Source of the DNA: an uncultured Acidobacteriota bacterium
Lineage (GTDB): Bacteria; Acidobacteriota; Polarisedimenticolia; J045
Assembly (NCBI GenBank): GCA_964420365.1
Contig: CAYQTA010000011.1
Span: 13,031-77,030, forward strand
Length of the DNA stretch: 64,000 nt
Reading direction: 5' to 3'
Made by a program: the position numbers and the translations under genes. A model generated the notes under the pieces. It had not been told where the DNA came from. It worked only from the letters and a program-made list of their open reading frames with translations, and ran no database searches. Of the stretch, positions 6,322 to 15,594 are shown piece after piece (within the stretch, counting starts at the first letter, position 1; each line of letters starts with the position of its first letter).

Positions 6322-6974
6322 GCCCTCACCTCCTCGAGCTCCTCGCGGAACATCTGCGCCAGTTGGCGCCGGATCTCCTGCAGGGACGAGAAGTACGGGT
6401 CGATCGCCCCGATCCGCTCCCGCAGCCCGCGGTACCGCTCTCCGAGGGGCTCGAGCCAGGTGCAGAAGTCGTCGCTGCACTGCTCGGTCCGCCGCCGGGC
6501 GTCGATGAAGTGGTAGTAGATCGCCCCCTCGGACAGGGACGGCAGGATCCGTCCGAGCTCCTCCGGGGTCTCCACCCGTACGCCCGCGTCGAACACGACG
6601 ATCCGGGAACGGAGGAAGTGGAACCGCTGGTCGGCGCGCGACCAGGGCACGTACTCGCTCTGGTCCAGGCGATCCTCGACGATGTCGAGCAGCTCCTCGC
6701 GCAGTTCCTCGAGGTCCTGGAAGTCGACGGGGTTGACGACGGCCAGCCGCTCCGCCAGCGCCTTGTCGTGCAGCCCGTGCCAGGCCCAGGCAGCGAAGTC
6801 GTTGTTGTACTCCGGCTCGTCGAACCAGGGCTGCAGCAGGCGGCCCCAGAAATGGTGGTAGATCGAGTCGACCGGGACCCGCTGGAGCCCGTCGCGGAAC
6901 TCCCGCAGGTTCTGGGCCCAGGTCCCGGTCGCGATCGTCACCAGCGCGCAGTCCCGGACGGTGAAGGGAGCCAT
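6318..6974 (-). CDS. DUF5752-family (TreT-associated) protein
   Basis: Two internal repeats (SIYHHF…NNDFAAW; AIYYHF…SDDFCTW) typical of the protein encoded beside treT. GGAGG upstream of ATG 6974. Confidence 0.75.
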   Translation of the reverse strand: MAPFTVRDCALVTIATGTWAQNLREFRDGLQRVPVDSIYHHFWGRLLQPWFDEPEYNNDFAAWAWHGLHDKALAERLAVVNPVDFQDLEELREELLDIVEDRLDQSEYVPWSRADQRFHFLRSRIVVFDAGVRVETPEELGRILPSLSEGAIYYHFIDARRRTEQCSDDFCTWLEPLGERYRGLRERIGAIDPYFSSLQEIRRQLAQMFREELEEVRA

Positions 6975-7083
6975 CTCGCACCTCCGCCTCACCGTTCAAT
7001 CTATCCCGCCACGGTTCGCGGCGGCAAGGTGGAACGCGTGCCTCGGGAAACGTCGCCGGCGCCGGAGCGGGGCGGCGCGGGAA

Positions 7084-8640
7084 TCAGCCCGGGACGCGCC
7101 AGACGGTGTCCAGGACGGTGCCGTCGACCCACTTGATGACGGCGACCGGCTCGTCGGTCAGCTCGGGCCGGGCGGGCTTGCCGCCGACGATCCGCTCCAC
7201 CTCCGCCTGGATCTCCTCGATCGGCCGGACCGGGAGGTCGGTTCCCCTCACCGCATCGAGCAGGTCCTGCCGGAGCGGGTTGATCGCGATCCCCCGCTCC
7301 GTGACGACCACGTCGACCAGCTCGGAGGGACCGGTGATCGTCGTCACCTCGTCGACGATCACCGGGATCCGGTCCCGGAACGAGGGAACGGCGAGGATCG
7401 TGCACCGGGAGAAGAGGCAGTTCTGCCAGCCGCCGATCCCGTGAAGGAGCCGGCCGTCCGAGTGGGTGACCACGTTGGCCCGGAACCGGACGTCCACCTC
7501 GGTCGCCCCGAGCACCACCGCGTCGACCATCGACGCGAAGTTTCCCTTGCCGTGGTAGTTGTACGAGGTGAACGGCGTGGTCGGGACGTGCCGCGGGTCG
7601 CTGGCGATCGAGCGGACGGCGTCCAGGTCGAAGGTCTGCCCGTCGAGGATGTAGTCGGTCAGCCCCTCCTGGAGCATCTCCACCAGGACCTTGGTCGATC
7701 CCCCCCGGACGAACCGCGCCTTGACGCCCGCCTCCCGCATCATCTCGCGCAGGAACGCGACGAAGGCGAGAGAGATGCCGCCGGCCCCGGCCTGGAACGA
7801 GAAGCCGTCCCTCATGATGCCCGCCTCGCGGATGAAGCGGGCCACCAGCTCCGCGATCCGCAACCGGTCGGGACTGCGCGTGATGCGGGTCGTGCCGGAA
7901 ACGATCTTCTCCGGGTCCCCGATCGAGTCGACCTCGACAACGTAGTCGACGTCGTTCCCGTGGATCTGCCAGGGGATGCACGGAAACGGCACCAGGTTGT
8001 CGGTGACCACGATCACGTGGTCGGCATAGATCGAGTCGGCGACGGCGAACCCGAGGGAACCGCAGGCCGAGGGCCCGTGGGCCCCGTTGGCGTTCCCGAA
8101 CGGGTCGGCGCAGGGCGCGGCGATCACCGCGATGTCGACGTGGACCTCGCCGTCCTGGATCGCCTGCCAGCGCCCGCCGTGGGAGCGGAGGACCCCGAGT
8201 CCCCGCATCTTCCCCCGCGAGCAGTAGTCTCCCAGGGGCCCGTTCATCGAGCCCTCGATGTGGTGGACGACTCCCTGCTCCATCAGGTCGATCACCGGCG
8301 CGTGGCAGGGGAAGGAGGCGCTGGGAAACCACATCAGGTCCTTCGCGCCGAGCCGGGCGGCCGCCTCGAGGGCGGCGAGGGCGACGCGGTCCCCGTTGCG
8401 CAGGTGGTGGTGGGTCGAGATCGTCATCCCGTCCCGGAGACCGCAGGCCTCGAGGGCCGCCTCGAGGGACGGCACCCGCTTGTCCCCGTCCGCCGGGTAG
8501 TCGGCGCAGGTCCGGATCGGGGGCGCGGCCTTCCTGCCTTCCGGCCGGTACTTCCCCACCCCCCGGTACGGCACCTGGGCCCTGCCGTTCACCTCCGTGG
8601 GAACCAGCCGGCCCGCCGCGTTCTTCACCATCCCGCTCAT
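7084..8640 (-). CDS. citF: Citrate lyase alpha subunit-like CoA/ACP transferase
   Basis: Motifs GLRDGMTISTHHHLRNGD, GVLRSHGGR, ACGSLGFA, FSFQAGAGG and LGATEVDVRFRANV. ATG 8640 overlaps the upstream stop. Confidence 0.88.
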   Translation of the reverse strand: MSGMVKNAAGRLVPTEVNGRAQVPYRGVGKYRPEGRKAAPPIRTCADYPADGDKRVPSLEAALEACGLRDGMTISTHHHLRNGDRVALAALEAAARLGAKDLMWFPSASFPCHAPVIDLMEQGVVHHIEGSMNGPLGDYCSRGKMRGLGVLRSHGGRWQAIQDGEVHVDIAVIAAPCADPFGNANGAHGPSACGSLGFAVADSIYADHVIVVTDNLVPFPCIPWQIHGNDVDYVVEVDSIGDPEKIVSGTTRITRSPDRLRIAELVARFIREAGIMRDGFSFQAGAGGISLAFVAFLREMMREAGVKARFVRGGSTKVLVEMLQEGLTDYILDGQTFDLDAVRSIASDPRHVPTTPFTSYNYHGKGNFASMVDAVVLGATEVDVRFRANVVTHSDGRLLHGIGGWQNCLFSRCTILAVPSFRDRIPVIVDEVTTITGPSELVDVVVTERGIAINPLRQDLLDAVRGTDLPVRPIEEIQAEVERIVGGKPARPELTDEPVAVIKWVDGTVLDTVWRVPG

Positions 8641-9824
8641 GCGTCGTCTCCCAGGAGGCCCATCGCCCGGGCCCGCTCCACGAGCTTGAGTGCCCGCTCG
8701 ACGACGGGCGGATCGATCATCTTGCTGCCGAGGCTGACGACGCCGAGCCCCCTCGCCTGCGCGTCTTCGAAGGCCGCGACGATCTTCCGGGCCCTCTCGA
8801 TCTCGGCGGCGGAGGGGGCGAACGCCTCGTGGATCACCGGGACCTGCCGCGGATGGACCGCCCCCATTCCCTCGAAGCCGATCGCCCGGGCCCGCTCGCC
8901 CCACGCCCGGAGGCCGTCCATGTCGGCGACGTTCCCGTAGACCGAGTCGATCGCCTGGATGCCCGCCGCCTTGGCGGCATTGACGAGGCGCAGCCGGGCC
9001 CAGAGGCTCTCCTCGCCCCCCGGCGTCTTCACGACCCCGAGGTCGGCCGTGTAGTCCTCGAGCCCGATCGTCAGCGCACAGACCCGCTCCGAGGCGGTCG
9101 CGATCTCGAACGCCCGCTCGATCCCGAGGGCCGACTCGAGGATCGGCATCAGCCAGACGTCCCGGTCGGGCAGGATCCGCCGGATCGCGGCGTCCACCTC
9201 GCGGACCTGCTCGGCGGACTCGACCTTCGGGACCAGCACCAGGTCCGGCCGTTCCGGGATCACCTCCCGCAGGTCCTCGAGTCCCAGCGGGAGCTGGTTG
9301 ATCCGCACCATCCGCTCGGCCCCGCCGAAGTCGATCGCCCGCAGGGCGTTGCGCACCAGGAGCCGGGCCGCGTCCTTCTCCGCCGGGTGCACGGAGTCCT
9401 CGAGGTCGAGGATCAGGCCGTCCGCCCCGTGGAGCCCGGCGTTCGGGAAGTACTTCGGCTCGTTGCCCGGGAGGTAGAGCCGGGACCGGCGCAGCCGGTC
9501 CCGGGGCGACGGGGGGGGCAGGGGGAGCCCCCCGGGGAGGTGCCGCTTCCCCTCGCCGAGGCCCGCCCGGCGCACCGCCGCCTCGATCCGGGCCGCGATG
9601 ACGAACGGCAGGGCTCCCCGGTCGTCGATCTCGAGCCGACCGGCGGTGACCCCCAGGTCCGCGAGAACCCGCCGCGCCTGCTCCTCGATCGCCGTGCCGT
9701 ACCAGGTGGCGACCTTCGACCGCAGCTCGATGCGGAGACCGTCCCCGCCCGGCTCGAAGCGGACGAACAGGTCCGAGCGAACCCCATCGCCCCGGCGGCC
9801 GGCCTCTCCCGCGCGCTCGCCCAT
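8637..9824 (-). CDS. CitD (ACP-like)-CitE (citryl-CoA lyase family) fusion
   Basis: The N-terminal ~90 aa are CitD-like (RSDLFV…IELRSKV…YG.AI…IDDRGALPFVIAARIEAAV). The CitE domain follows: RRSRLYLPGN, ILDLEDSV, RMVRIN, ILESALG, GLEDYTADLG, HPRQ. Confidence 0.85.
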   Translation of the reverse strand: MGERAGEAGRRGDGVRSDLFVRFEPGGDGLRIELRSKVATWYGTAIEEQARRVLADLGVTAGRLEIDDRGALPFVIAARIEAAVRRAGLGEGKRHLPGGLPLPPPSPRDRLRRSRLYLPGNEPKYFPNAGLHGADGLILDLEDSVHPAEKDAARLLVRNALRAIDFGGAERMVRINQLPLGLEDLREVIPERPDLVLVPKVESAEQVREVDAAIRRILPDRDVWLMPILESALGIERAFEIATASERVCALTIGLEDYTADLGVVKTPGGEESLWARLRLVNAAKAAGIQAIDSVYGNVADMDGLRAWGERARAIGFEGMGAVHPRQVPVIHEAFAPSAAEIERARKIVAAFEDAQARGLGVVSLGSKMIDPPVVERALKLVERARAMGLLGDDA

Positions 9825-9835
9825 GGTTTCCTCGC

Positions 9836-11020
9836 TCACAGGTTGGCGATGATCGCGTCCGTCATCTGCGTCGTCGTGGCCGCTCCCCGGGAGATCGCGT
9901 CCGGGCCACCCGGGATCTTCATCATGTCGTAGGTGCGGACCTTCCCCTCCGCGATCACGGCCGCGATCGCCTCGCGCACCCGCCTCGCCTTCTCCTCCTC
10001 GCCCACGTGGTCGAGCAGCATCGCGGCGGAGAGGATCATCGCGATCGGGTTGACGATCGGGGGGTCGAGCTCGGCGTACTTCGGCGCGGACCCGTGGGTC
10101 GGCTCGAACACCGCGACCTCGTCCCCGATGTTCCCCGAGCAGGCGAACCCGAGCCCGCCGACCAGCCCGGCAAAGGCGTCGGAAACGATGTCGCCGAACA
10201 GGTTGCCGGCGACGATCACGCCGTAGTCCTCCGGGTTCTTCGTCAGCCACATCATCTGGGCGTCGATGTTCGTCGACCAGAGCTCGATCTCCGGGAAGTC
10301 CTTCCGCACCTCGCGCGCGACCTCCTCCATCATGCCGGAGGTCTCGCGCAGCACGTTCGGCTTCTCGCAGACCGTCACCGACCGGTACCCGTGCTTCTTC
10401 GCGTACTGGAAGGCCGCGGTGAGGATCCGGCGGCAGGCACGCCGGGTGAAGATCCGAACGGAAAGGGCCAGGTCCTCGCCGGGAACGTCCTTGAAGCGCT
10501 CGAACTTGGGATGCGTCTCGAGCGCCTTGCGGACCACCTCCGGCGGATCGGTCCACTCGACGCCCGCGTAGAGCCCCTCGGTGTTCTGCCGGAAGATCAC
10601 GGCGTCCACCGGCGGCTCCTCGAACCCGCCGTCGGGGGTCCGCCGGATGAAGTTCAGCGGGTTCCCCCTGAACGACCGGCAGGGCCGGATGCAGACGTCG
10701 AGGTTGAACCGCTGCCGCATCCCGACGATCGGGGAGAAGTAGACGTATCCCCTGTCGCGCAGGGAGGGATCGAGTTCCTTCGCCGCCTCGGCCTTGGGCT
10801 TGCTCGTGATCGCCCCGAAGAGTCCCAGCTTGTGCTCGGCGAGCAGCTCGACGGTCCGCTCCGGGAGGGGATTCCCCTCCTTCACCCAGAACTCCCAGCC
10901 GATGTCCGCGTGCACGTACTCGGCATCGAAGCCGACCGCGTCGAGGACGCGGATCGCCTCCGGCAGCACGGTCTTGCCGATCCCGTCGCCGGGCATCGCC
11001 ACCACGGTGTACTTCGCCAT
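9836..11020 (-). CDS. Isocitrate/isopropylmalate/homoisocitrate dehydrogenase family protein
   Basis: Motifs PGDGIG, GAITS, SPIVGMR, NTEGLY, KPNVL, NLFGDIVSD and FEPTHGSAPKYA. Confidence 0.9.
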   Translation of the reverse strand: MAKYTVVAMPGDGIGKTVLPEAIRVLDAVGFDAEYVHADIGWEFWVKEGNPLPERTVELLAEHKLGLFGAITSKPKAEAAKELDPSLRDRGYVYFSPIVGMRQRFNLDVCIRPCRSFRGNPLNFIRRTPDGGFEEPPVDAVIFRQNTEGLYAGVEWTDPPEVVRKALETHPKFERFKDVPGEDLALSVRIFTRRACRRILTAAFQYAKKHGYRSVTVCEKPNVLRETSGMMEEVAREVRKDFPEIELWSTNIDAQMMWLTKNPEDYGVIVAGNLFGDIVSDAFAGLVGGLGFACSGNIGDEVAVFEPTHGSAPKYAELDPPIVNPIAMILSAAMLLDHVGEEEKARRVREAIAAVIAEGKVRTYDMMKIPGGPDAISRGAATTTQMTDAIIANL

Positions 11021-11024
11021 CGTC

Positions 11025-12983
11025 TCACCCCTCCTGGTTCCCGCCCGCGGCGAGCTTCTGTTTCACGAGGTTCTCCACCCCGCCCGCGACGACCAGCGCC
11101 TGGGGCACCTCCGACAGGGCGGGGAACGGCCACTCCTTCCCGTCCCAGCGGATGACGCCCGCGGCGAAGTCGACCTCGATCTCCTCGCCGGGGACGATCG
11201 TCCGCTCGCCGGCCGCGACCCGGTCCGCGAACCGCTCCCGGAGGGCGGCGACCAGGTCGGGCTGGACGATGCAGGCGAAGCCGTTGTTGAACGCGTTCCT
11301 CAGGTACGTCTGGGAGAAACCGGCCGCGATCACCAGCGCGATCCCCTTCGCCTGCAGCGCGGTGACCGCCTGCTCGCGGCTCGACCCGGTGCCGAAGTTG
11401 AACCCGCCGACGAGGACGTCTCCCTCGCGGGTCTTCGCCGCGAACTCCGGGTCGTAGTTCTCCATCACGACCCGGGCCATCTCCTCCCGGGTCATGTCCT
11501 CGCGGTAGGTGTAGTCCTTTCCGTAGATGCCGTCGGTGTTGAGGTTGTCCTGCGGCAGGAAGACCAGCCGCCCGCGGACCCGCTCCGGGAACCCCGGGAG
11601 GATCTCCACCCTCGCCGGCTCCCGGGCCGGTTCCTCGAACTGCTCGATCCGCCGGGCCGGTTCCCGCGCGTCCCACTCGCCGGGGCCGGTGATCTTCCCG
11701 GCCAGCGCCGAGGCAGCGACGACGGCAGGACTCGCCAGGTAGCAGCGGGCGTCCCGGGACCCCATCCGGCCCTTGAAGTTCCGGTTGGTCGCCGAGATGC
11801 CGACCTCCCCCGCCTCGAGGAGCCCCACCCCGAGCCCGATGCAGGGGCCGCAGGCGGGGGGCAGCATCACGGCGCCCGCCTCCTTGAGAATGCGCCAGGT
11901 CCCACGGCGCTCCGCCTCCGCCTGGATCTCCCGGCTGGCCGCGGCGACGTACAACCGTGCCCTCGCCCTCTTCCCGGCCAGGACCCGCGCCGCCGCCTCC
12001 AGGTCCTCGAGGCGGGAGTTCACGCACGAAAGGATGTAGGCCCGGTCGACGGGAATCTCCTGCCGGGCGACTTCAGGCAGCGGCGCCCCGGCCTGGACGG
12101 TGTCCGGGCCGGCCACGTGGGGCACGACCTCCCCGAGGTCGAGGACGATCCGGGCCGCGTAGCGGGCATCCGGGTCGGGCGCCGGGGGATCCTCTTCCCA
12201 CCGGTCGATGTCGTCCGCGGAGAACGGCCGCCGCCCGGTCGCCTCGAGCACGGCGAGCCGCTCCCGGAACCAGGCGATCGTCCGCCCGTCCACCGGGAAC
12301 CAGCCGGTGAGAGCACCCCACTCGGTCGTCATGTTGGCGATCGTCATCCGGGCATCGATCGAGAGCTCGGCGACCCCCGGCCCCGCGAACTCGACGGCGG
12401 CGTTCAGCGCCTCCCCCTCCCGGTACAGCCGGCAGAGGGCGAGGATCACGTCCTTGCCGGTGACGCCCTCCCGGAGCTTCCCCTCGAGGACGACCTGGAC
12501 GGTCCGCGGCACCTGCCACCAGGTCTCCCCGGAGGCCCAGATCGCGGCCGCGTCGGTCCGCACGACCGGCGTGCCGAGGGCACCGACCGCCCCGTACATG
12601 TTCGAGTGGCTGTCCGACGCGACGACCAGGGCGCCGGGAGTGACGTACCCCTGCTCCAGCATCACCTGGTGGCCGATGCCGGTGCCCGCCGGCCAGAAGT
12701 CGATCCCCTGTTCCCGGGCGAACGCCTCGATCGATGCGTACTTGGCCAGGTTCTTCGCCGACACGTTCTGGATGTCGTGATCGAGGGCGAAGACCGGCTG
12801 CCGGGGATCGTGGACCCGGGGGATGCCGAGTCCCCGGAACTTCTTCATCACCGCGGCCGTGTTGTCGTGGGTCATCACGTGCTTCGGGCGCACGGTGACG
12901 AAGTCGCCGGCGCGCACCTCCCGGTCCCGCGGACCGGAGGTCATGTGCGCCTGGGCGATCTTCTCGGCAATCGTCTGGCCCAT
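11025..12983 (-). CDS. Single-chain homoaconitase-like hydratase (fungal Lys4/LysF type; large and swivel domains fused)
   Basis: Motifs HVMTHDN, LDHDIQN, GIGHQVM, ASDSHSNMYG, RTDAAAIWASGETWWQVP; Fe-S cysteines in SCVNSR and ACGPCIG; C-terminal DNLNTDGIY…MENYDPEF…NFGTGSSREQA. Confidence 0.85.
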   Translation of the reverse strand: MGQTIAEKIAQAHMTSGPRDREVRAGDFVTVRPKHVMTHDNTAAVMKKFRGLGIPRVHDPRQPVFALDHDIQNVSAKNLAKYASIEAFAREQGIDFWPAGTGIGHQVMLEQGYVTPGALVVASDSHSNMYGAVGALGTPVVRTDAAAIWASGETWWQVPRTVQVVLEGKLREGVTGKDVILALCRLYREGEALNAAVEFAGPGVAELSIDARMTIANMTTEWGALTGWFPVDGRTIAWFRERLAVLEATGRRPFSADDIDRWEEDPPAPDPDARYAARIVLDLGEVVPHVAGPDTVQAGAPLPEVARQEIPVDRAYILSCVNSRLEDLEAAARVLAGKRARARLYVAAASREIQAEAERRGTWRILKEAGAVMLPPACGPCIGLGVGLLEAGEVGISATNRNFKGRMGSRDARCYLASPAVVAASALAGKITGPGEWDAREPARRIEQFEEPAREPARVEILPGFPERVRGRLVFLPQDNLNTDGIYGKDYTYREDMTREEMARVVMENYDPEFAAKTREGDVLVGGFNFGTGSSREQAVTALQAKGIALVIAAGFSQTYLRNAFNNGFACIVQPDLVAALRERFADRVAAGERTIVPGEEIEVDFAAGVIRWDGKEWPFPALSEVPQALVVAGGVENLVKQKLAAGGNQEG

Positions 12984-12997
12984 CACGGCCTCCCGGC

Positions 12998-14371
12998 TCA
13001 GGCGTCCTTCGCGCAGAGCGCCATCAGCTCGGTGATCGAGCCGAGGTTCTCCAGGTTCCAGACGGCCTCCTTCAGCCTCGCGCGCCGCTCCTCCGAGAGC
13101 ACCGGGGCCGCGAGGGCGTCGAACTTCGCCTCGATCTCCTCGTCCGAGAGCGGGTTGCGCGGGTCGCCCTTGGGATAGTCGAGCTGCTTCTCGTAGCGCT
13201 GCCCGTCGACCGTCTCGATGGTGACGTGGACCCGCTGCAGCTCGGGAAAGACCTTCTCGATCTCCGGGTCGGCGAGGACTTCCACCTTGTGGAGCTGTTC
13301 CCGGATCACCGGGTCCATGATGCGCTCCGGCGTGAAGGCCGCAGGGGTCACGTTCCGGTCGACCAGGGCCGCGGCGATCACGTACGGCAGCGAGTGGTCC
13401 GCCGTTTCCTTGCTCCGCGGGTCGTACTTGCTCGGGTCGGCAAGGATGTCGGCGGCACGGGCGAGAGAGCGGATGATCACCTTCTTCACTCGCTCCGGTG
13501 CCAGGTCGTGCTCCCGCACCAGGTCGAGGACGGCGGAGATCGGCGTATGGGTCAGCGCCTCGGTCGGAAACGCCTTCATCCCGCAGCGGGTGATCCGCCA
13601 CGACTCTCCCAGCCCCTCGACCAGGATGTCCAGCTTCCACTCCGGCCCGAGGCAGTGGACCAGCCCCTCCTTGCCGTCGATCACGTGCTCCGGCCCCGTG
13701 TAGCCCTTCTCCGCCAGGAGGGCCGCCAGCACGCCGGACTGGGTGGCCAGCGGGTCGACGGTGTTCTTCATCATCGTCAGCTTGCCGGCGGTCACCGCGC
13801 CCAGGGTGGCGTGGCGGCTGCCGGAGATACCGATCGCGTGCTGGATCTTCTCCCAGTCCAGGTGAAGCATCCGCCCCGCGACGATCGGCGCGGCGAACGC
13901 GGTCAGCGTCGCGTGGTGCCAGCCCCGTTCCCGGATCCCCGGGAACGCGATCTCGCACAGCCGCATCTCGAACTCGTGTCCGAGCACGATCCCGACGATC
14001 AGCTCCTTTCCGTCTCCCCCGGCCCGCTCGCCGCACGCCATCGCCGCCGGGATGATGTCCGAGGGATGGGACGGGTCCTGCTGCCAGTAGATGTCGTTGT
14101 AGTCCATCACCCGGACCATCAGGGCGTTCGCCAGCGAGGCCGAGACCGGGTCGAGCCGCTTCCCGGTCCCGATCACCGTGGCCGGCCCCTCCCCGGCGCA
14201 CTCCTCGAGGACGCCGAGGGCGATCTCGACGTCGTGCTTGGTGTACCCCCCGAGGGCACACCCGAGGGAATCGAGGAGGAAGCGCTTCGCCTCCCGGACG
14301 GCCTCCGGGGACAGGTCGTCGAACCTGAGGTCGGCGGCCCAGCGGGCCATCTTCTCGGTGATCGTGCTCAT
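12998..14371 (-). CDS. MmgE/PrpD-family dehydratase
   Basis: Motifs LLDSLGCALG, RVMDYNDIY…HPSD, RGWHHAT, KAFPTEALTH, ETADHSLPY and PKGDPRNPLSDEEIEAKF. ATGA overlap with the upstream gene. Confidence 0.9.
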   Translation of the reverse strand: MSTITEKMARWAADLRFDDLSPEAVREAKRFLLDSLGCALGGYTKHDVEIALGVLEECAGEGPATVIGTGKRLDPVSASLANALMVRVMDYNDIYWQQDPSHPSDIIPAAMACGERAGGDGKELIVGIVLGHEFEMRLCEIAFPGIRERGWHHATLTAFAAPIVAGRMLHLDWEKIQHAIGISGSRHATLGAVTAGKLTMMKNTVDPLATQSGVLAALLAEKGYTGPEHVIDGKEGLVHCLGPEWKLDILVEGLGESWRITRCGMKAFPTEALTHTPISAVLDLVREHDLAPERVKKVIIRSLARAADILADPSKYDPRSKETADHSLPYVIAAALVDRNVTPAAFTPERIMDPVIREQLHKVEVLADPEIEKVFPELQRVHVTIETVDGQRYEKQLDYPKGDPRNPLSDEEIEAKFDALAAPVLSEERRARLKEAVWNLENLGSITELMALCAKDA

Positions 14372-14910
14372 CGCAGGCTCTCCTTGAAGGGCAGGAAGCT
14401 CATGAAGTCCGCGTGGTGGACGATCGTCGCCTCGACGCTGCGCTTCACCATGTTTCCCTCGCCGGCGTGCGCGGCGATGACGTGGCACACCGCGTCGGGC
14501 ACGCCGCACTCCATGGCGAGGGCCACGCCGGTGAACGGGTGCCGCAGGTACTTCCCGCGCATGCTCTGCCGGGCCTCGCCCTCCACGATCTCGTACTCGA
14601 GGAGCTTGCCGACGTCGGCGAGGATCGCCCCCGCGATCACGACGTCCATGTCGATCGGCAGCGACTTCCCCATGAACTCCCGCATCGCCTCGGCGGACCT
14701 CCGGGCGATGTGGACCACGCAGCGCTTGTGTTCCATGAAGGTGACCGGGCAGTCCGGCACGAGCAGCGTGAACGGGATCCGCTCGAGGTCCTCCGGGGCC
14801 AGCGGACTTCTCTCGAGGGCAAGCTCCCATGTTCGCTCGACTTTTGCCCGCAGGTCGGAGTCGGAGATCCACTCCAGCTCGGGCCACAGGCGGCGGACGG
14901 CGTCGCTCAT
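14368..14910 (-). CDS. HD-superfamily (HDIG-like) protein with HD replaced by AD
   Basis: Motifs MEH(61)KRCV, GAILA(98)D(99)VGKLLEY, RHPFTG, IAAHAGEG and IVHHAD. First gene of the operon. Confidence 0.75.
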   Translation of the reverse strand: MSDAVRRLWPELEWISDSDLRAKVERTWELALERSPLAPEDLERIPFTLLVPDCPVTFMEHKRCVVHIARRSAEAMREFMGKSLPIDMDVVIAGAILADVGKLLEYEIVEGEARQSMRGKYLRHPFTGVALAMECGVPDAVCHVIAAHAGEGNMVKRSVEATIVHHADFMSFLPFKESLR

Positions 14911-14976
14911 CGCGGGTTCTCCTTCCGGTTGTGGCCGGTAAGATTACCCGGCCCGCATCCCGGAGGCCAAGGCTCG

Positions 14977-15594
14977 ATGACCCGGATCCCCCCCCACCAC
15001 CCGAGGAACTTCCTCTTCGACCTGTCCGCGCCCGCCTGGGACGTCCTGATGGGCCGCTGGGCGCTGCGCGACGTCCTCCGGCGGCTGGGCCCCGGGCGCG
15101 GCAGGCGGGTCCTCGACCTCGGCGGGGCGACCGGACGCCTGTCCGTGCACCTGGCCCGCCTGGGGATGCGCCCGGTTGTGCTCGATCCGTCCCTCCCGAT
15201 GGTTCGCCGGGCCCGGAGACGGGGCCTCGCCGCCGTGGCCGGCTCGGCCCATGCCCTGCCCTTCCGGGACGGCGCGTTCGACGCGGTGATCGTCCTCGAC
15301 GCCCTGCACCACGTGTCCGACATCCCCCGGAGCCTCGGGGAGGCCGCCCGCGTCCTCGAGCCCGGGGGCCGGCTGCTGCTCCACGAGCCGGATCCCGAGA
15401 CGGCCATGGGACGGCTGACGGCGGTGCTGGAACGCCTCGCGGGGATGGGCAGCCTGCTCCTGCCGGCGGCGACCCTCGAGGCCCTCCTCCGGGAGGCGGG
15501 CCTCGAGGTGGTCCTCGTCGAGCGAAGGCGCTTCCATCTCGAGATCGAGGCCGGGAAACCGGGCCCCGGACCTCCCCGGCCGCCTAGAGGGTGA
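14977..15594 (+). CDS. Class I SAM-dependent methyltransferase
   Basis: Motifs VLDLGGATG, AHALPFRDGAFDAV and VLEPGGRLLL. GGAGG upstream of ATG 14977. Confidence 0.8.
   Translation: MTRIPPHHPRNFLFDLSAPAWDVLMGRWALRDVLRRLGPGRGRRVLDLGGATGRLSVHLARLGMRPVVLDPSLPMVRRARRRGLAAVAGSAHALPFRDGAFDAVIVLDALHHVSDIPRSLGEAARVLEPGGRLLLHEPDPETAMGRLTAVLERLAGMGSLLLPAATLEALLREAGLEVVLVERRRFHLEIEAGKPGPGPPRPPRG

What the first reader, a model, noticed from the sequence alone, without database searches (positions are those of the whole stretch)
11025..14371. Fungal-type homoaconitase paired with PrpD: a possible two-enzyme split aconitase
Seen: a single-chain hydratase whose motifs (MTHDN, LDHDIQN, ASDSHSNMYG, RTDAAAIW…WWQVP, MENYDPEF) match fungal Lys4/LysF as I recall them, rather than two-subunit bacterial LeuCD/LysTU. 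It is encoded directly after a PrpD. Known: fungal Lys4 is reported to handle only the homoaconitate/homoisocitrate half-reaction, and PrpD exists in the methylcitrate cycle because aconitase cannot dehydrate the stereoisomer made by the synthase. Inference: PrpD supplies the missing homocitrate dehydration, possibly on the opposite enantiomer made by citrate-lyase-type chemistry. The locus may also bear on the bacterial origin of fungal Lys4.
Basis: partly seen in the sequence, partly recalled or inferred. Interest (0 to 1): 0.6.

Follow-up and report, generated by a model that had tools for sequence, protein, structure and literature searches.

The report
Lys4-type homoaconitase with PrpD-family partner
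A bacterial copy of the fungal lysine-pathway enzyme homoaconitase sits beside a PrpD-family enzyme in a six-gene operon kept in several phyla, which probably runs the start of that pathway backwards to break the lysine product 2-oxoadipate into 2-oxoglutarate and acetate; no enzyme has been tested.

Summary
Window 11025-12983 (-) encodes a 652-aa single-chain aconitase-family protein. It passes NCBI's fungal homoaconitase model (729 bits, cut-off 530) and groups with named fungal LYS4 in trees. Window 12998-14371 (-) encodes an MmgE/PrpD-family protein, 14 nt upstream.

Both lie in a tight operon: HD-fold protein, PrpD-like, homoaconitase, homoisocitrate-dehydrogenase-like enzyme, CitD-CitE fusion, CitF. 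The set is colinear in Acidobacteriota and Gemmatimonadota and rearranged in the FCB group. In Verrucomicrobiota and Planctomycetota, citryl-CoA synthetase plus lyase replaces CitDEF.

The genome has no homocitrate synthase family gene, LysW, LysA or 2-oxoglutarate-dehydrogenase E1. It does have lysine 6-transaminase and piperideine-6-carboxylate dehydrogenase. I therefore read the operon as catabolic: 2-oxoadipate to homoisocitrate, cis-homoaconitate, homocitrate, then acetate plus 2-oxoglutarate.

The "PrpD" is not a 2-methylcitrate dehydratase orthologue, but it carries that enzyme's motif (R..D[FY]ND...HPSD). Pro-S-type lyases should need (S)-homocitrate, which would make a PrpD-type step necessary. 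This is inferred, not shown. Two Gemmatimonadaceae genomes lack the gene.

A bacterial origin of fungal Lys4 is favoured by the tree but not significant (AU p 0.22).

Earlier notes of this scan report the same operon in at least 19 other genomes.

The parts
14368..14910 (-). HD-fold protein (180 aa) and first gene of the operon. The His of the HD motif is replaced by Ala (ILADVGK).
   Evidence: Pfam HD 30.5 bits and NCBIfam HDIG 33 bits. The His is A, I or L in orthologues from all phyla aligned. It lies within 10 kb of the hydratase in 34 of 44 full-flank loci. It overlaps the next gene by 4 nt.
12998..14371 (-). MmgE/PrpD-family protein (457 aa). Proposed (S)-homocitrate / cis-homoaconitate hydro-lyase.
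   Evidence: Pfam MmgE_PrpD_N and _C. It scores below all PrpD equivalog cut-offs. Best solved relatives are IDS epimerase (146 bits) and B. subtilis IRG1 (127), against true PrpD at 58-60. It shares the motif R-x-x-D-[FY]-N-D...HPSD with four solved 2-methylcitrate dehydratases, where CAD, IDS epimerase and BsIRG1 have H-x-x-DFDD.
11025..12983 (-). Single-chain Lys4/LysF-type homoaconitase (652 aa). Proposed homoisocitrate / cis-homoaconitate hydro-lyase.
   Evidence: TIGR00139 scores 729.2 against a cut-off of 529.9. Atlas structure TM 0.95 to 'Homoaconitase, mitochondrial' of Ascomycota. It sits in the same supported family as named fungal LYS4. It is identical at 86% of 199 columns that are invariant in 14 fungal Lys4.
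9836..11020 (-). Isocitrate/isopropylmalate-dehydrogenase family enzyme (394 aa), closest to homoisocitrate dehydrogenases.
   Evidence: Pfam Iso_dh E 3.4e-77. Best NCBIfam hits are AksF-type homoisocitrate dehydrogenases, below cut-off. Best solved relatives are Thermus homoisocitrate dehydrogenase 3asj and 1x0l at about 203 bits.
8637..9824 (-). CitD(ACP-like)-CitE fusion: lyase beta subunit with an N-terminal carrier domain.
   Evidence: Pfam ACP (MdcD/CitD) plus HpcH_HpaI. citE TIGR01588 scores 260.8 bits, below the cut-off of 443. The same fusion is reported in Ignavibacterium album as IALB_1147 (PMC3362086).
7084..8640 (-). CitF-type CoA-transferase (lyase alpha subunit) and last gene of the operon.
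   Evidence: Pfam CitF E 1.6e-133. citF TIGR01584 scores 495.1 against a cut-off of 501.45. It overlaps the CitDE stop by 4 nt.

Best explanation
The two genes are the isomerase pair of a six-gene catabolic module that runs the upper alpha-aminoadipate pathway backwards.

Proposed route:
1. Lysine is converted elsewhere in the genome to 2-aminoadipate by lysine 6-transaminase and piperideine-6-carboxylate dehydrogenase. A transamination then gives 2-oxoadipate (inferred).
2. The Iso_dh enzyme reductively carboxylates 2-oxoadipate to homoisocitrate (inferred).
3. The Lys4-type homoaconitase dehydrates homoisocitrate to cis-homoaconitate. This is inferred from orthology with characterised fungal enzymes.
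4. The MmgE/PrpD-family protein hydrates cis-homoaconitate to homocitrate. The product is probably the (S) enantiomer, because the lyase is of the pro-S type and an aconitase-family enzyme cannot work on the arm in the pro-S position. This step is inferred by analogy with PrpD in the methylcitrate cycle.
5. CitF and CitE cleave homocitrate to acetate plus 2-oxoglutarate. In other phyla an ATP-dependent citryl-CoA synthetase plus lyase pair would give acetyl-CoA instead.

Shown here: family memberships, operon structure, conservation, displacement of the lyase by an unrelated type, and gene presence or absence in the genome. Substrates, direction and stereochemistry are all inferred.
For: - The operon is tight: gaps or overlaps of -4, 14, 4, 11 and -4 nt.
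- Among 44 hydratase loci with at least 8 kb on both sides, 22 carry all of HD, PrpD-like, Iso_dh, CitDE and CitF, and 29 carry the PrpD-like gene. The order is rearranged but the genes stay together in FCB-group phyla.
- Close PrpD-like orthologues in metagenomes have the hydratase directly downstream in 65 of 67 loci and the HD gene upstream in 70 of 70.
- Verrucomicrobiota and Planctomycetota loci without CitDEF instead have ATP-grasp/citrate-binding and CoA-ligase subunits plus a citryl-CoA lyase (264 bits, cut-off 212) in front of HD-hydratase-Iso_dh. A lyase step is thus conserved through replacement by an unrelated enzyme.
- In locus L048, lysine 6-transaminase (590 bits, cut-off 521) and P6C dehydrogenase (779, cut-off 730) directly follow the PrpD-like gene.
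- The window's genome has both enzymes, at 654 and 774 bits.
- Not found in the window's genome: HMGL-like synthase, LysW, LysA above cut-off, 2-oxoglutarate/2-oxoadipate dehydrogenase E1.
- The genome has its own citrate synthase, a second aconitase-family gene and a second Iso_dh gene elsewhere.
- I. album, which carries the module, lacks lysine biosynthesis genes and needs yeast extract (PMC3362086).
- Lys4p and LysF act on homoaconitate and homoisocitrate and not on homocitrate (PMC3556520).
- The PrpD-like protein keeps the family's enolate-binding His and Lys residues and shares the dehydratase-type motif (PMC12290011).
Against: - No enzyme of the module has been assayed, and I found no paper describing it.
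- The PrpD-like gene was not found in two Gemmatimonadaceae genomes that keep HD-hydratase-Iso_dh-CitDE-CitF, so it is not indispensable there.
- In a sample of 81 genomes of the window's phylum, 6 of the 7 with the hydratase also have the PrpD-like gene. Three genomes of one family have it without the hydratase, in unrelated surroundings.
- 8 of the 44 full-flank loci have the hydratase with no partner nearby.
- Overall, the PrpD-like protein is closer to an epimerase and to IRG1-like proteins than to PrpD.
- Reductive carboxylation of 2-oxoadipate has no precedent that I know of.
- Fungal and Thermus aconitases hydrate homoaconitate (PMC3556520), so the housekeeping aconitase could do the step assigned here to the PrpD-like protein.
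Confidence: 0.45

Rival explanations
1. The module works on C6 acids. It would be a dedicated 'split aconitase' branch (PrpD-like for citrate/cis-aconitate, hydratase for cis-aconitate/isocitrate). This branch would link 2-oxoglutarate to oxaloacetate plus acetate or acetyl-CoA, for citrate or glutamate fermentation or an unconventional reverse TCA arm.
For: The lyase genes score close to the citrate-lyase models (citF 495 bits, cut-off 501). The I. album genome paper called them ATP-independent citrate lyase and proposed citrate fermentation or a reverse TCA role. NCBIfam names one PrpD model 'bifunctional 2-methylcitrate dehydratase/aconitate hydratase'. The Verrucomicrobiota and Planctomycetota version resembles the citryl-CoA synthetase plus lyase pair of the reductive TCA cycle.
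Against: The hydratase is orthologous to Lys4, whose activity on citrate, aconitate and isocitrate is about 0.02 U/mg against 0.3-0.5 on the C7 acids. It keeps 86-97% of fungal-invariant residues. The genome already has a citrate synthase, a second aconitase-family gene and a second Iso_dh gene. Citrate is symmetric enough that no PrpD-type step would be needed. Lysine-catabolic genes adjoin the module in L048 and L044.
Confidence: 0.15
2. The operon is the same C7 module, but the PrpD-family protein is not the homocitrate hydro-lyase. It would be an epimerase/isomerase (for example on homoisocitrate, or between cis- and trans-homoaconitate) or a side-product salvage enzyme. The homocitrate step would then be done by the housekeeping aconitase or by the hydratase itself.
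For: Its nearest solved relatives are an epimerase and IRG1-like proteins. A family member was recently shown to be a methylsuccinate isomerase (PMC12290011). Fungal and Thermus aconitases hydrate homoaconitate. The gene was not found in two Gemmatimonadaceae carriers.
Against: At the active-site strand it has Arg, Asn and HPSD like four solved 2-methylcitrate dehydratases. The epimerase, the decarboxylase and BsIRG1 have His/Asp there, and the isomerase has His88/Glu91 by the paper's residue list. The pro-S-type lyases create exactly the stereochemical problem that PrpD solves in the methylcitrate cycle (established stereochemistry; my inference).
Confidence: 0.2
3. The module works on another 2-oxoacid series. 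One option is 2-oxobutyrate/citraconate/(S)-citramalate, giving pyruvate plus acetate. Another is 2-oxoisocaproate/isopropylmalate or longer 2-oxodicarboxylates.
For: CitDEF-like complexes include citramalate lyase, and CitE relatives cleave (S)-citramalyl-CoA (my knowledge of the family; RipC hit of 177 bits). Specificity in the aconitase and Iso_dh families turns on a few residues. The genome lacks LeuA, LeuCD and LeuB.
Against: The TIGR00139 equivalog is passed and the Lys4 loop TDGIY..K.YTY.DD and MENYDP.F are kept. The dehydrogenase is nearest to homoisocitrate dehydrogenases. Lysine-to-aminoadipate genes are adjacent in L048.
Confidence: 0.12
4. Biosynthetic reading: the operon makes 2-oxoadipate from 2-oxoglutarate plus acetate or acetyl-CoA for lysine or another product, with the lyase running as a synthase.
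For: All three downstream enzyme types are those of the upper aminoadipate pathway. CitE-type and citrate-synthase-type lyases are reversible in principle.
Against: The genome has no LysW, no LysA above cut-off and no homocitrate synthase family gene. I. album carries the module but cannot make lysine. A CoA-transferase/lyase pair gives no thioester-hydrolysis driving force (my reasoning). Catabolic lysine genes are adjacent in L048.
Confidence: 0.06

Closest known systems
Fungal homoaconitase Lys4 (S. cerevisiae) / LysF (Aspergillus), EC 4.2.1.36
   Same: Single chain with the large and swivel domains fused. It passes the TIGR00139 equivalog cut-off and shares a supported tree family with named fungal LYS4. 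It is identical at 86% of fungal-invariant columns, and the loop and MENYDP.F motifs are conserved.
   Different: It is bacterial and has no mitochondrial presequence. Its operon has a lyase instead of a synthase, in a genome where lysine synthesis genes were not found, so it probably runs in the dehydrating (catabolic) direction. The variable loop residue is Arg where fungi have Gln.
2-methylcitrate dehydratase PrpD with aconitase in the methylcitrate cycle
   Same: The logic is the same. A si/pro-S-type C-C enzyme puts the arm that must be dehydrated where aconitase cannot act. A cofactor-free MmgE/PrpD enzyme does one half-reaction and an Fe-S aconitase-family enzyme does the other. The R..D[FY]ND...HPSD motif is shared.
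   Different: It is not an orthologue (101.6 bits against a cut-off of 950). The operon has no prpB or prpC. The proposed substrate is C7 homocitrate, and the proposed direction is hydration.
Citrate lyase CitDEF and the citryl-CoA synthetase/lyase (Ccs/Ccl) or ATP-citrate lyase systems
   Same: The operon partners belong to these families, and either type occurs with the hydratase depending on phylum.
   Different: Scores fall below the citE and citF cut-offs. CitD is fused to CitE. CitG was not found in the genome. The proposed substrate is homocitrate rather than citrate.
IDS epimerase, cis-aconitate decarboxylase (IRG1/CAD) and methylsuccinate isomerase (other MmgE/PrpD members)
   Same: The fold is the same, and the His and Lys residues that hold a 1,4-dicarboxylate enolate are conserved. 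These are the highest-scoring solved relatives.
   Different: Those enzymes have His and Asp (or Glu) where the window protein and the true dehydratases have Arg and Asn.

Membership tests
Fungal-type homoaconitase (Lys4/LysF, NCBIfam TIGR00139) | One polypeptide with the aconitase large domain followed by the swivel (LeuD-like) domain | tested here: met
   Pfam Aconitase at residues 7-429 and Aconitase_C at 458-573 in a 652-aa protein.
Fungal-type homoaconitase (Lys4/LysF, NCBIfam TIGR00139) | Score above the curated equivalog cut-off | tested here: met
   729.2 bits against 529.9. All LeuC, HacA and aconitase models score below their own cut-offs except the broad PRK00402 subfamily.
Fungal-type homoaconitase (Lys4/LysF, NCBIfam TIGR00139) | Groups with named fungal LYS4 in a tree, apart from other fused aconitase-family proteins | tested here: met
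   The family node holds 51 rows with SH-aLRT 98 and includes Candida, Melanopsichium and Meira LYS4. Identity at fungal-invariant columns is 86%, against 48-67% for outgroups.
Fungal-type homoaconitase (Lys4/LysF, NCBIfam TIGR00139) | 4Fe-4S ligand cysteines and the catalytic serine loop | tested here: met
   SCVN, CGPC and GSSRE are present in the translation. I assigned them from my knowledge of aconitase.
Fungal-type homoaconitase (Lys4/LysF, NCBIfam TIGR00139) | Catalyses only homoaconitate <-> homoisocitrate | not testable with these tools
   Known for Lys4p and LysF (PMC3556520). It needs an assay here.
2-methylcitrate dehydratase PrpD (EC 4.2.1.79) | Score above the PrpD equivalog cut-offs | tested here: not met
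   101.6 against 950, 85.5 against 575 and 68.8 against 458. Solved PrpDs score only 49-60 bits.
2-methylcitrate dehydratase PrpD (EC 4.2.1.79) | Active-site strand motif R-W-L-D-[FY]-N-D-T-W...G-H-P-S-D | tested here: inconclusive
   The window has R-V-M-D-Y-N-D-I-Y-W...S-H-P-S-D. The R, N and HPSD positions match all four solved PrpDs and differ from CAD, IDS epimerase and BsIRG1. The functional meaning of these positions is my inference.
2-methylcitrate dehydratase PrpD (EC 4.2.1.79) | Encoded with methylcitrate synthase and methylisocitrate lyase | tested here: not met
   The operon holds no prpB- or prpC-type gene. E. coli prpBCD was fetched for comparison.
MmgE/PrpD superfamily | N- and C-terminal MmgE/PrpD domains with the conserved His/Lys carboxylate-binding residues | tested here: met
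   Pfam hits. The His of HPSD, the His of GWHH, the Lys of MMKNT and the Lys of CGMKAFP are invariant in orthologues. They match the residue list in PMC12290011.
Alpha-aminoadipate lysine biosynthesis (upper pathway) | Homocitrate synthase (HMGL-like/LeuA family) present | tested here: not met
   No PF00682 match in a genome that is 98.3% complete.
Alpha-aminoadipate lysine biosynthesis (upper pathway) | Downstream lysine-forming enzymes (LysW system) | tested here: not met
   No LysW. LysA is also not above cut-off. DapB is present, as expected for cell-wall diaminopimelate.
Citrate lyase system CitCDEFXG | CitD, CitE and CitF together with the prosthetic-group genes | tested here: not met
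   The CitD-CitE fusion and CitF are present but below cut-offs. CitG was not found in the genome. CitX and CitC were not searched.

The most novel reading that the evidence does not exclude
(S)-homocitrate, the mirror image of the biosynthetic and nitrogenase-cofactor acid, is a natural metabolite. It would be made from cis-homoaconitate by a new MmgE/PrpD-family hydro-lyase and cleaved by pro-S-type lyases, in a widespread route of lysine/2-oxoadipate breakdown that needs no 2-oxoacid dehydrogenase. Fungal Lys4 would descend from this bacterial catabolic enzyme.
Probability: 0.3. Interest if true: 0.78.

Novelty: new variant of a known kind. Interest (0 to 1): 0.62.

Why it matters
- **A new route for lysine breakdown.** If right, many soil and sediment bacteria (Acidobacteriota, Gemmatimonadota, Verrucomicrobiota, Planctomycetota, FCB group) dispose of lysine-derived 2-oxoadipate by an undescribed route. 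It would yield 2-oxoglutarate and acetate or acetyl-CoA without a 2-oxoacid dehydrogenase or glutaryl-CoA.
- **A concrete test of an old gap.** Which enzyme handles the homocitrate half-reaction that Lys4-type homoaconitases cannot do? The candidate here is a cofactor-free PrpD-family enzyme.
- **An annotation warning.** Current pipelines label these genes 'homoaconitase', 'citrate lyase' and '2-methylcitrate dehydratase'. Metabolic reconstructions could then infer lysine synthesis, citrate fermentation or propionate use wrongly.
- **A view on where Lys4 came from.** The family tree gives a bacterial context for the origin of fungal Lys4.

Tried and rejected
I took neighbourhoods from the search for related loci and the genome search instead.
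- The promoter and terminator scan of 6800-15200 found nothing. That is uninformative in this 70% GC genome.
- Neighbours of hydratase genes that stand alone (L066, L073, L078, L082) are unrelated genes and gave no lysine-synthesis context.
- Surroundings of the PrpD-like gene in genomes without the hydratase (L176, L180) are signalling and glycine-cleavage genes. The lysine transaminase 4.6 kb away in L180 may be a coincidence.
- The methanogen specificity motif YLRT does not map cleanly onto this family. I dropped it in favour of direct comparison with fungal Lys4.
- A CAD-type decarboxylase role was rejected on chemistry: cis-homoaconitate lacks the beta,gamma-unsaturated carboxylate (my reasoning).
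- The AU test did not reject bacterial monophyly, so I do not claim a bacterial origin of Lys4.
- The careful IQ-TREE run did not finish in time. The trees cited are quick searches with SH-aLRT support only.
- Four literature searches found no description of the pathway. The library lacks most subscription journals.

Full report
**What is there**

The window has about 72% G+C. It is contig C11 of a 3.15-Mb genome that is 98.3% complete. On the minus strand, six genes are packed with gaps or overlaps of -4, 14, 4, 11 and -4 nt:

| Window coordinates | Product |
|---|---|
| 14368-14910 | HD-fold protein |
| 12998-14371 | MmgE/PrpD-family protein |
| 11025-12983 | single-chain aconitase-family hydratase |
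| 9836-11020 | Iso_dh-family dehydrogenase |
| 8637-9824 | CitD-CitE fusion |
| 7084-8640 | CitF |

cysS lies upstream and a TreT-like glycosyltransferase lies downstream. A simple scan found no internal promoter or terminator.

**The hydratase**

The protein passes NCBIfam's fungal homoaconitase equivalog TIGR00139 at 729.2 bits (cut-off 529.9). It fails the LeuC, HacA and aconitase equivalogs. The ESM Atlas model superposes on 'Homoaconitase, mitochondrial' of Ascomycota with TM 0.95.

A profile-free search found more than 8000 relatives, mostly labelled 'homoaconitase' in Acidobacteriota MAGs. A genome scan found at least 597 loci in Acidobacteriota, Gemmatimonadota, Verrucomicrobiota, Planctomycetota, Nitrospirota, Myxococcota and the FCB group.

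I obtained named fungal sequences through (Candida, Melanopsichium and Meira LYS4, other Dikarya, Mucoromycota, chytrids and an aphelid). In a 64-row tree, the bacterial and fungal proteins form one family (SH-aLRT 98), apart from other fused aconitase-family proteins. The window protein sits in an Acidobacteriota/Gemmatimonadota clade (99). Bacterial members are identical at 86-97% of the 199 columns that are invariant in 14 fungal Lys4. Outgroups reach only 48-67%. The loop TDGIY..K.YTY.DD and the motif MENYDP.F are shared. So the protein does branch with fungal Lys4.

In the best trees the fungi are nested inside the bacterial radiation, next to the FCB group. The clade with FCB and one planctomycete has support 98. 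However, an AU test does not reject a tree with all bacteria together (lnL difference 11.1, p 0.223). A bacterial origin of Lys4 is therefore suggested, not shown.

**The 'PrpD'**

The protein has both MmgE/PrpD domains. It scores far below all three PrpD equivalog cut-offs. Among solved structures it is nearest to IDS epimerase (146 bits), B. subtilis 'IRG1' (127) and cis-aconitate decarboxylase (about 107). True 2-methylcitrate dehydratases reach only 49-60 bits.

I aligned it and 17 orthologues from five phyla with E. coli PrpD, taken from the annotated K-12 record. The family's His and Lys residues are kept. A 2025 study assigns these residues to binding the 1,4-dicarboxylate enolate (PMC12290011).

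At the strand before the HPS motif, the window family reads R-x-x-D-[FY]-N-D...HPSD. All four solved 2-methylcitrate dehydratases read the same way. The decarboxylase, the epimerase and BsIRG1 read H-x-x-D-F-D-D...HPS[SAG], and the methylsuccinate isomerase has His88/Glu91. This points to a hydro-lyase rather than an epimerase or decarboxylase. The functional meaning of these positions is my inference.

**Conservation of the pairing**

- Of 44 hydratase loci with at least 8 kb on both sides, 34 have the HD gene, 29 the PrpD-like gene, 33 the dehydrogenase and 24 CitDE and CitF. Twenty-two have all five and 8 have none.
- The order is colinear in Acidobacteriota and Gemmatimonadota. It is shuffled but still clustered in Ignavibacteria, Fidelibacterota and relatives.
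- Starting instead from the PrpD-like protein, 65 of 67 metagenome loci have the hydratase directly downstream and 70 of 70 have HD upstream. All of these are 75-98% identical relatives, so this is one clade.
- In 81 genomes of the window's own phylum, each at least 90% complete, 7 have the hydratase and 6 of those have the PrpD-like gene. Three genomes of one family have the PrpD-like gene alone, in unrelated surroundings.
- Two Gemmatimonadaceae genomes keep HD-hydratase-dehydrogenase-CitDE-CitF but gave no match to the PrpD-like protein.
- Five other genomes without the gene within 10 kb have MmgE/PrpD genes elsewhere.

The link is strong but not obligatory. HD is the more constant neighbour of the hydratase.

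**What the operon does**

Four results point to catabolism of a C7 acid.

1. In Verrucomicrobiota and Planctomycetota loci without CitDEF, HD-hydratase-dehydrogenase is preceded by a succinyl-CoA-synthetase-like pair with a citrate-binding domain and by a citryl-CoA lyase (264 bits, cut-off 212). An unrelated enzyme set thus supplies the same cleavage step, so a lyase is integral to the module.
2. In the Chthoniobacterales locus L048, lysine 6-transaminase and piperideine-6-carboxylate dehydrogenase, both above their equivalog cut-offs, directly follow the PrpD-like gene. L044 shows the dehydrogenase at its edge.
3. The window's genome has both of these enzymes (654 and 774 bits). It has no HMGL-like synthase, no LysW, no LysA above cut-off and no 2-oxoglutarate/2-oxoadipate dehydrogenase E1. 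DapB is present, as expected for cell-wall diaminopimelate. Citrate synthase, a second aconitase-family gene and a second Iso_dh gene exist elsewhere, so the TCA cycle does not need this operon.
4. Ignavibacterium album carries the hydratase. Its genome paper describes IALB_1146/1147 as CitF and a CitE-CitD fusion, notes missing lysine and branched-chain synthesis genes, and reports a need for yeast extract (PMC3362086).

The dehydrogenase is nearest to Thermus homoisocitrate dehydrogenase.

**Mechanism proposed**

2-Oxoadipate plus CO2 and NAD(P)H gives homoisocitrate. The Lys4-type enzyme gives cis-homoaconitate. The PrpD-family enzyme gives homocitrate. CitF and CitE give acetate plus 2-oxoglutarate.

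The role of the PrpD-family enzyme follows from established stereochemistry:

- Citrate lyase and ATP-citrate lyase/citryl-CoA lyase are pro-S (si) type.
- CitE relatives use (S)-citramalyl-CoA, whereas LeuA-family synthases make (R)-citramalate and (R)-homocitrate.
- With the same geometry, a CitE- or Ccl-type lyase would take (S)-homocitrate, in which the acetate-derived arm sits in the pro-S position.
- Aconitase-family enzymes act on the pro-R arm.
- This is exactly the situation of (2S,3S)-2-methylcitrate, for which PrpD exists.

Fazius et al. showed that Lys4p and LysF do not act on homocitrate (PMC3556520). None of this has been assayed for the bacterial enzymes.

**Weak points**

- The PrpD-like gene is dispensable in some carriers.
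- A housekeeping aconitase could hydrate homoaconitate, as in fungi and Thermus.
- The substrate series is inferred from orthology.
- I know of no precedent for reductive carboxylation of 2-oxoadipate.
- CitG is not found, so the carrier domain may be unloaded and the lyase may use free CoA. I tested only the CitG absence.

**Novelty**

Four full-text searches found no description of this pathway, of a homocitrate lyase, or of (S)-homocitrate as a metabolite. Public annotation already calls the hydratase 'homoaconitase', so its family identity is not new. The new parts are the pairing, its context and the implied route.

Earlier AI notes of this scan describe the same operon in at least 19 other genomes and reach a similar reading. 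They are not independent evidence. I found the lyase displacement and the lysine-gene adjacency before reading the second set of notes.

Noticed in passing
window 14368-14910 (-); orthologues in L006-L085: The HD-fold protein that leads the operon lacks the His of the HD motif in every phylum aligned (A, I or L before D-[VCI]-G-K). It keeps RHPF[ST]G, H..A.H..EG and HHADF. It is the most constant neighbour of the hydratase, often 14-130 nt upstream, and stays there whichever lyase type is present. Its role is unknown.
   Followed up: partly
L069:6101-9364 (+), L048:5968-9221 (+), and L043-L057: Verrucomicrobiota and Planctomycetota versions of the module replace CitDEF with a citryl-CoA-synthetase-like pair and a citryl-CoA lyase. 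In L048 these are fused into an ACL-like alpha chain.
   Followed up: yes
L093:2619-3965 (-) and L093:3999-4634 (-) (own genome, contig C60): The genome's lysine 6-transaminase gene lies next to an Lrp/AsnC-type regulator gene, a possible amino-acid-responsive control of lysine breakdown.
   Followed up: no
own genome: I found no LeuA-family gene and no LeuCD or LeuB. There are only two aconitase-family and two Iso_dh genes in all, and the only IlvC-like match is weak (30.8 bits). The organism looks auxotrophic for branched-chain amino acids as well as lysine.
   Followed up: partly
P0386 (Willaertia magna) and P0342 (Adiantum record): A heterolobosean amoeba protein groups with FCB-group bacterial homoaconitases rather than with fungi. 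A fern record also carries a homologue. These could be gene transfer or contamination.
   Followed up: no
L176 and L180 (genomes G040 and G023 of the window's phylum): PrpD-like orthologues (55% identity) occur without any Lys4-type hydratase in the genome. They sit next to a hybrid histidine kinase and a GGDEF response regulator. Their function there is unexplained.
   Followed up: partly
own genome contigs C107 and C77 (L088, L089): Two saccharopine-dehydrogenase-domain proteins score 69.9 and 54.1 bits on PF03435. They could mark a second lysine route or polyamine synthesis. I did not examine them.
   Followed up: no
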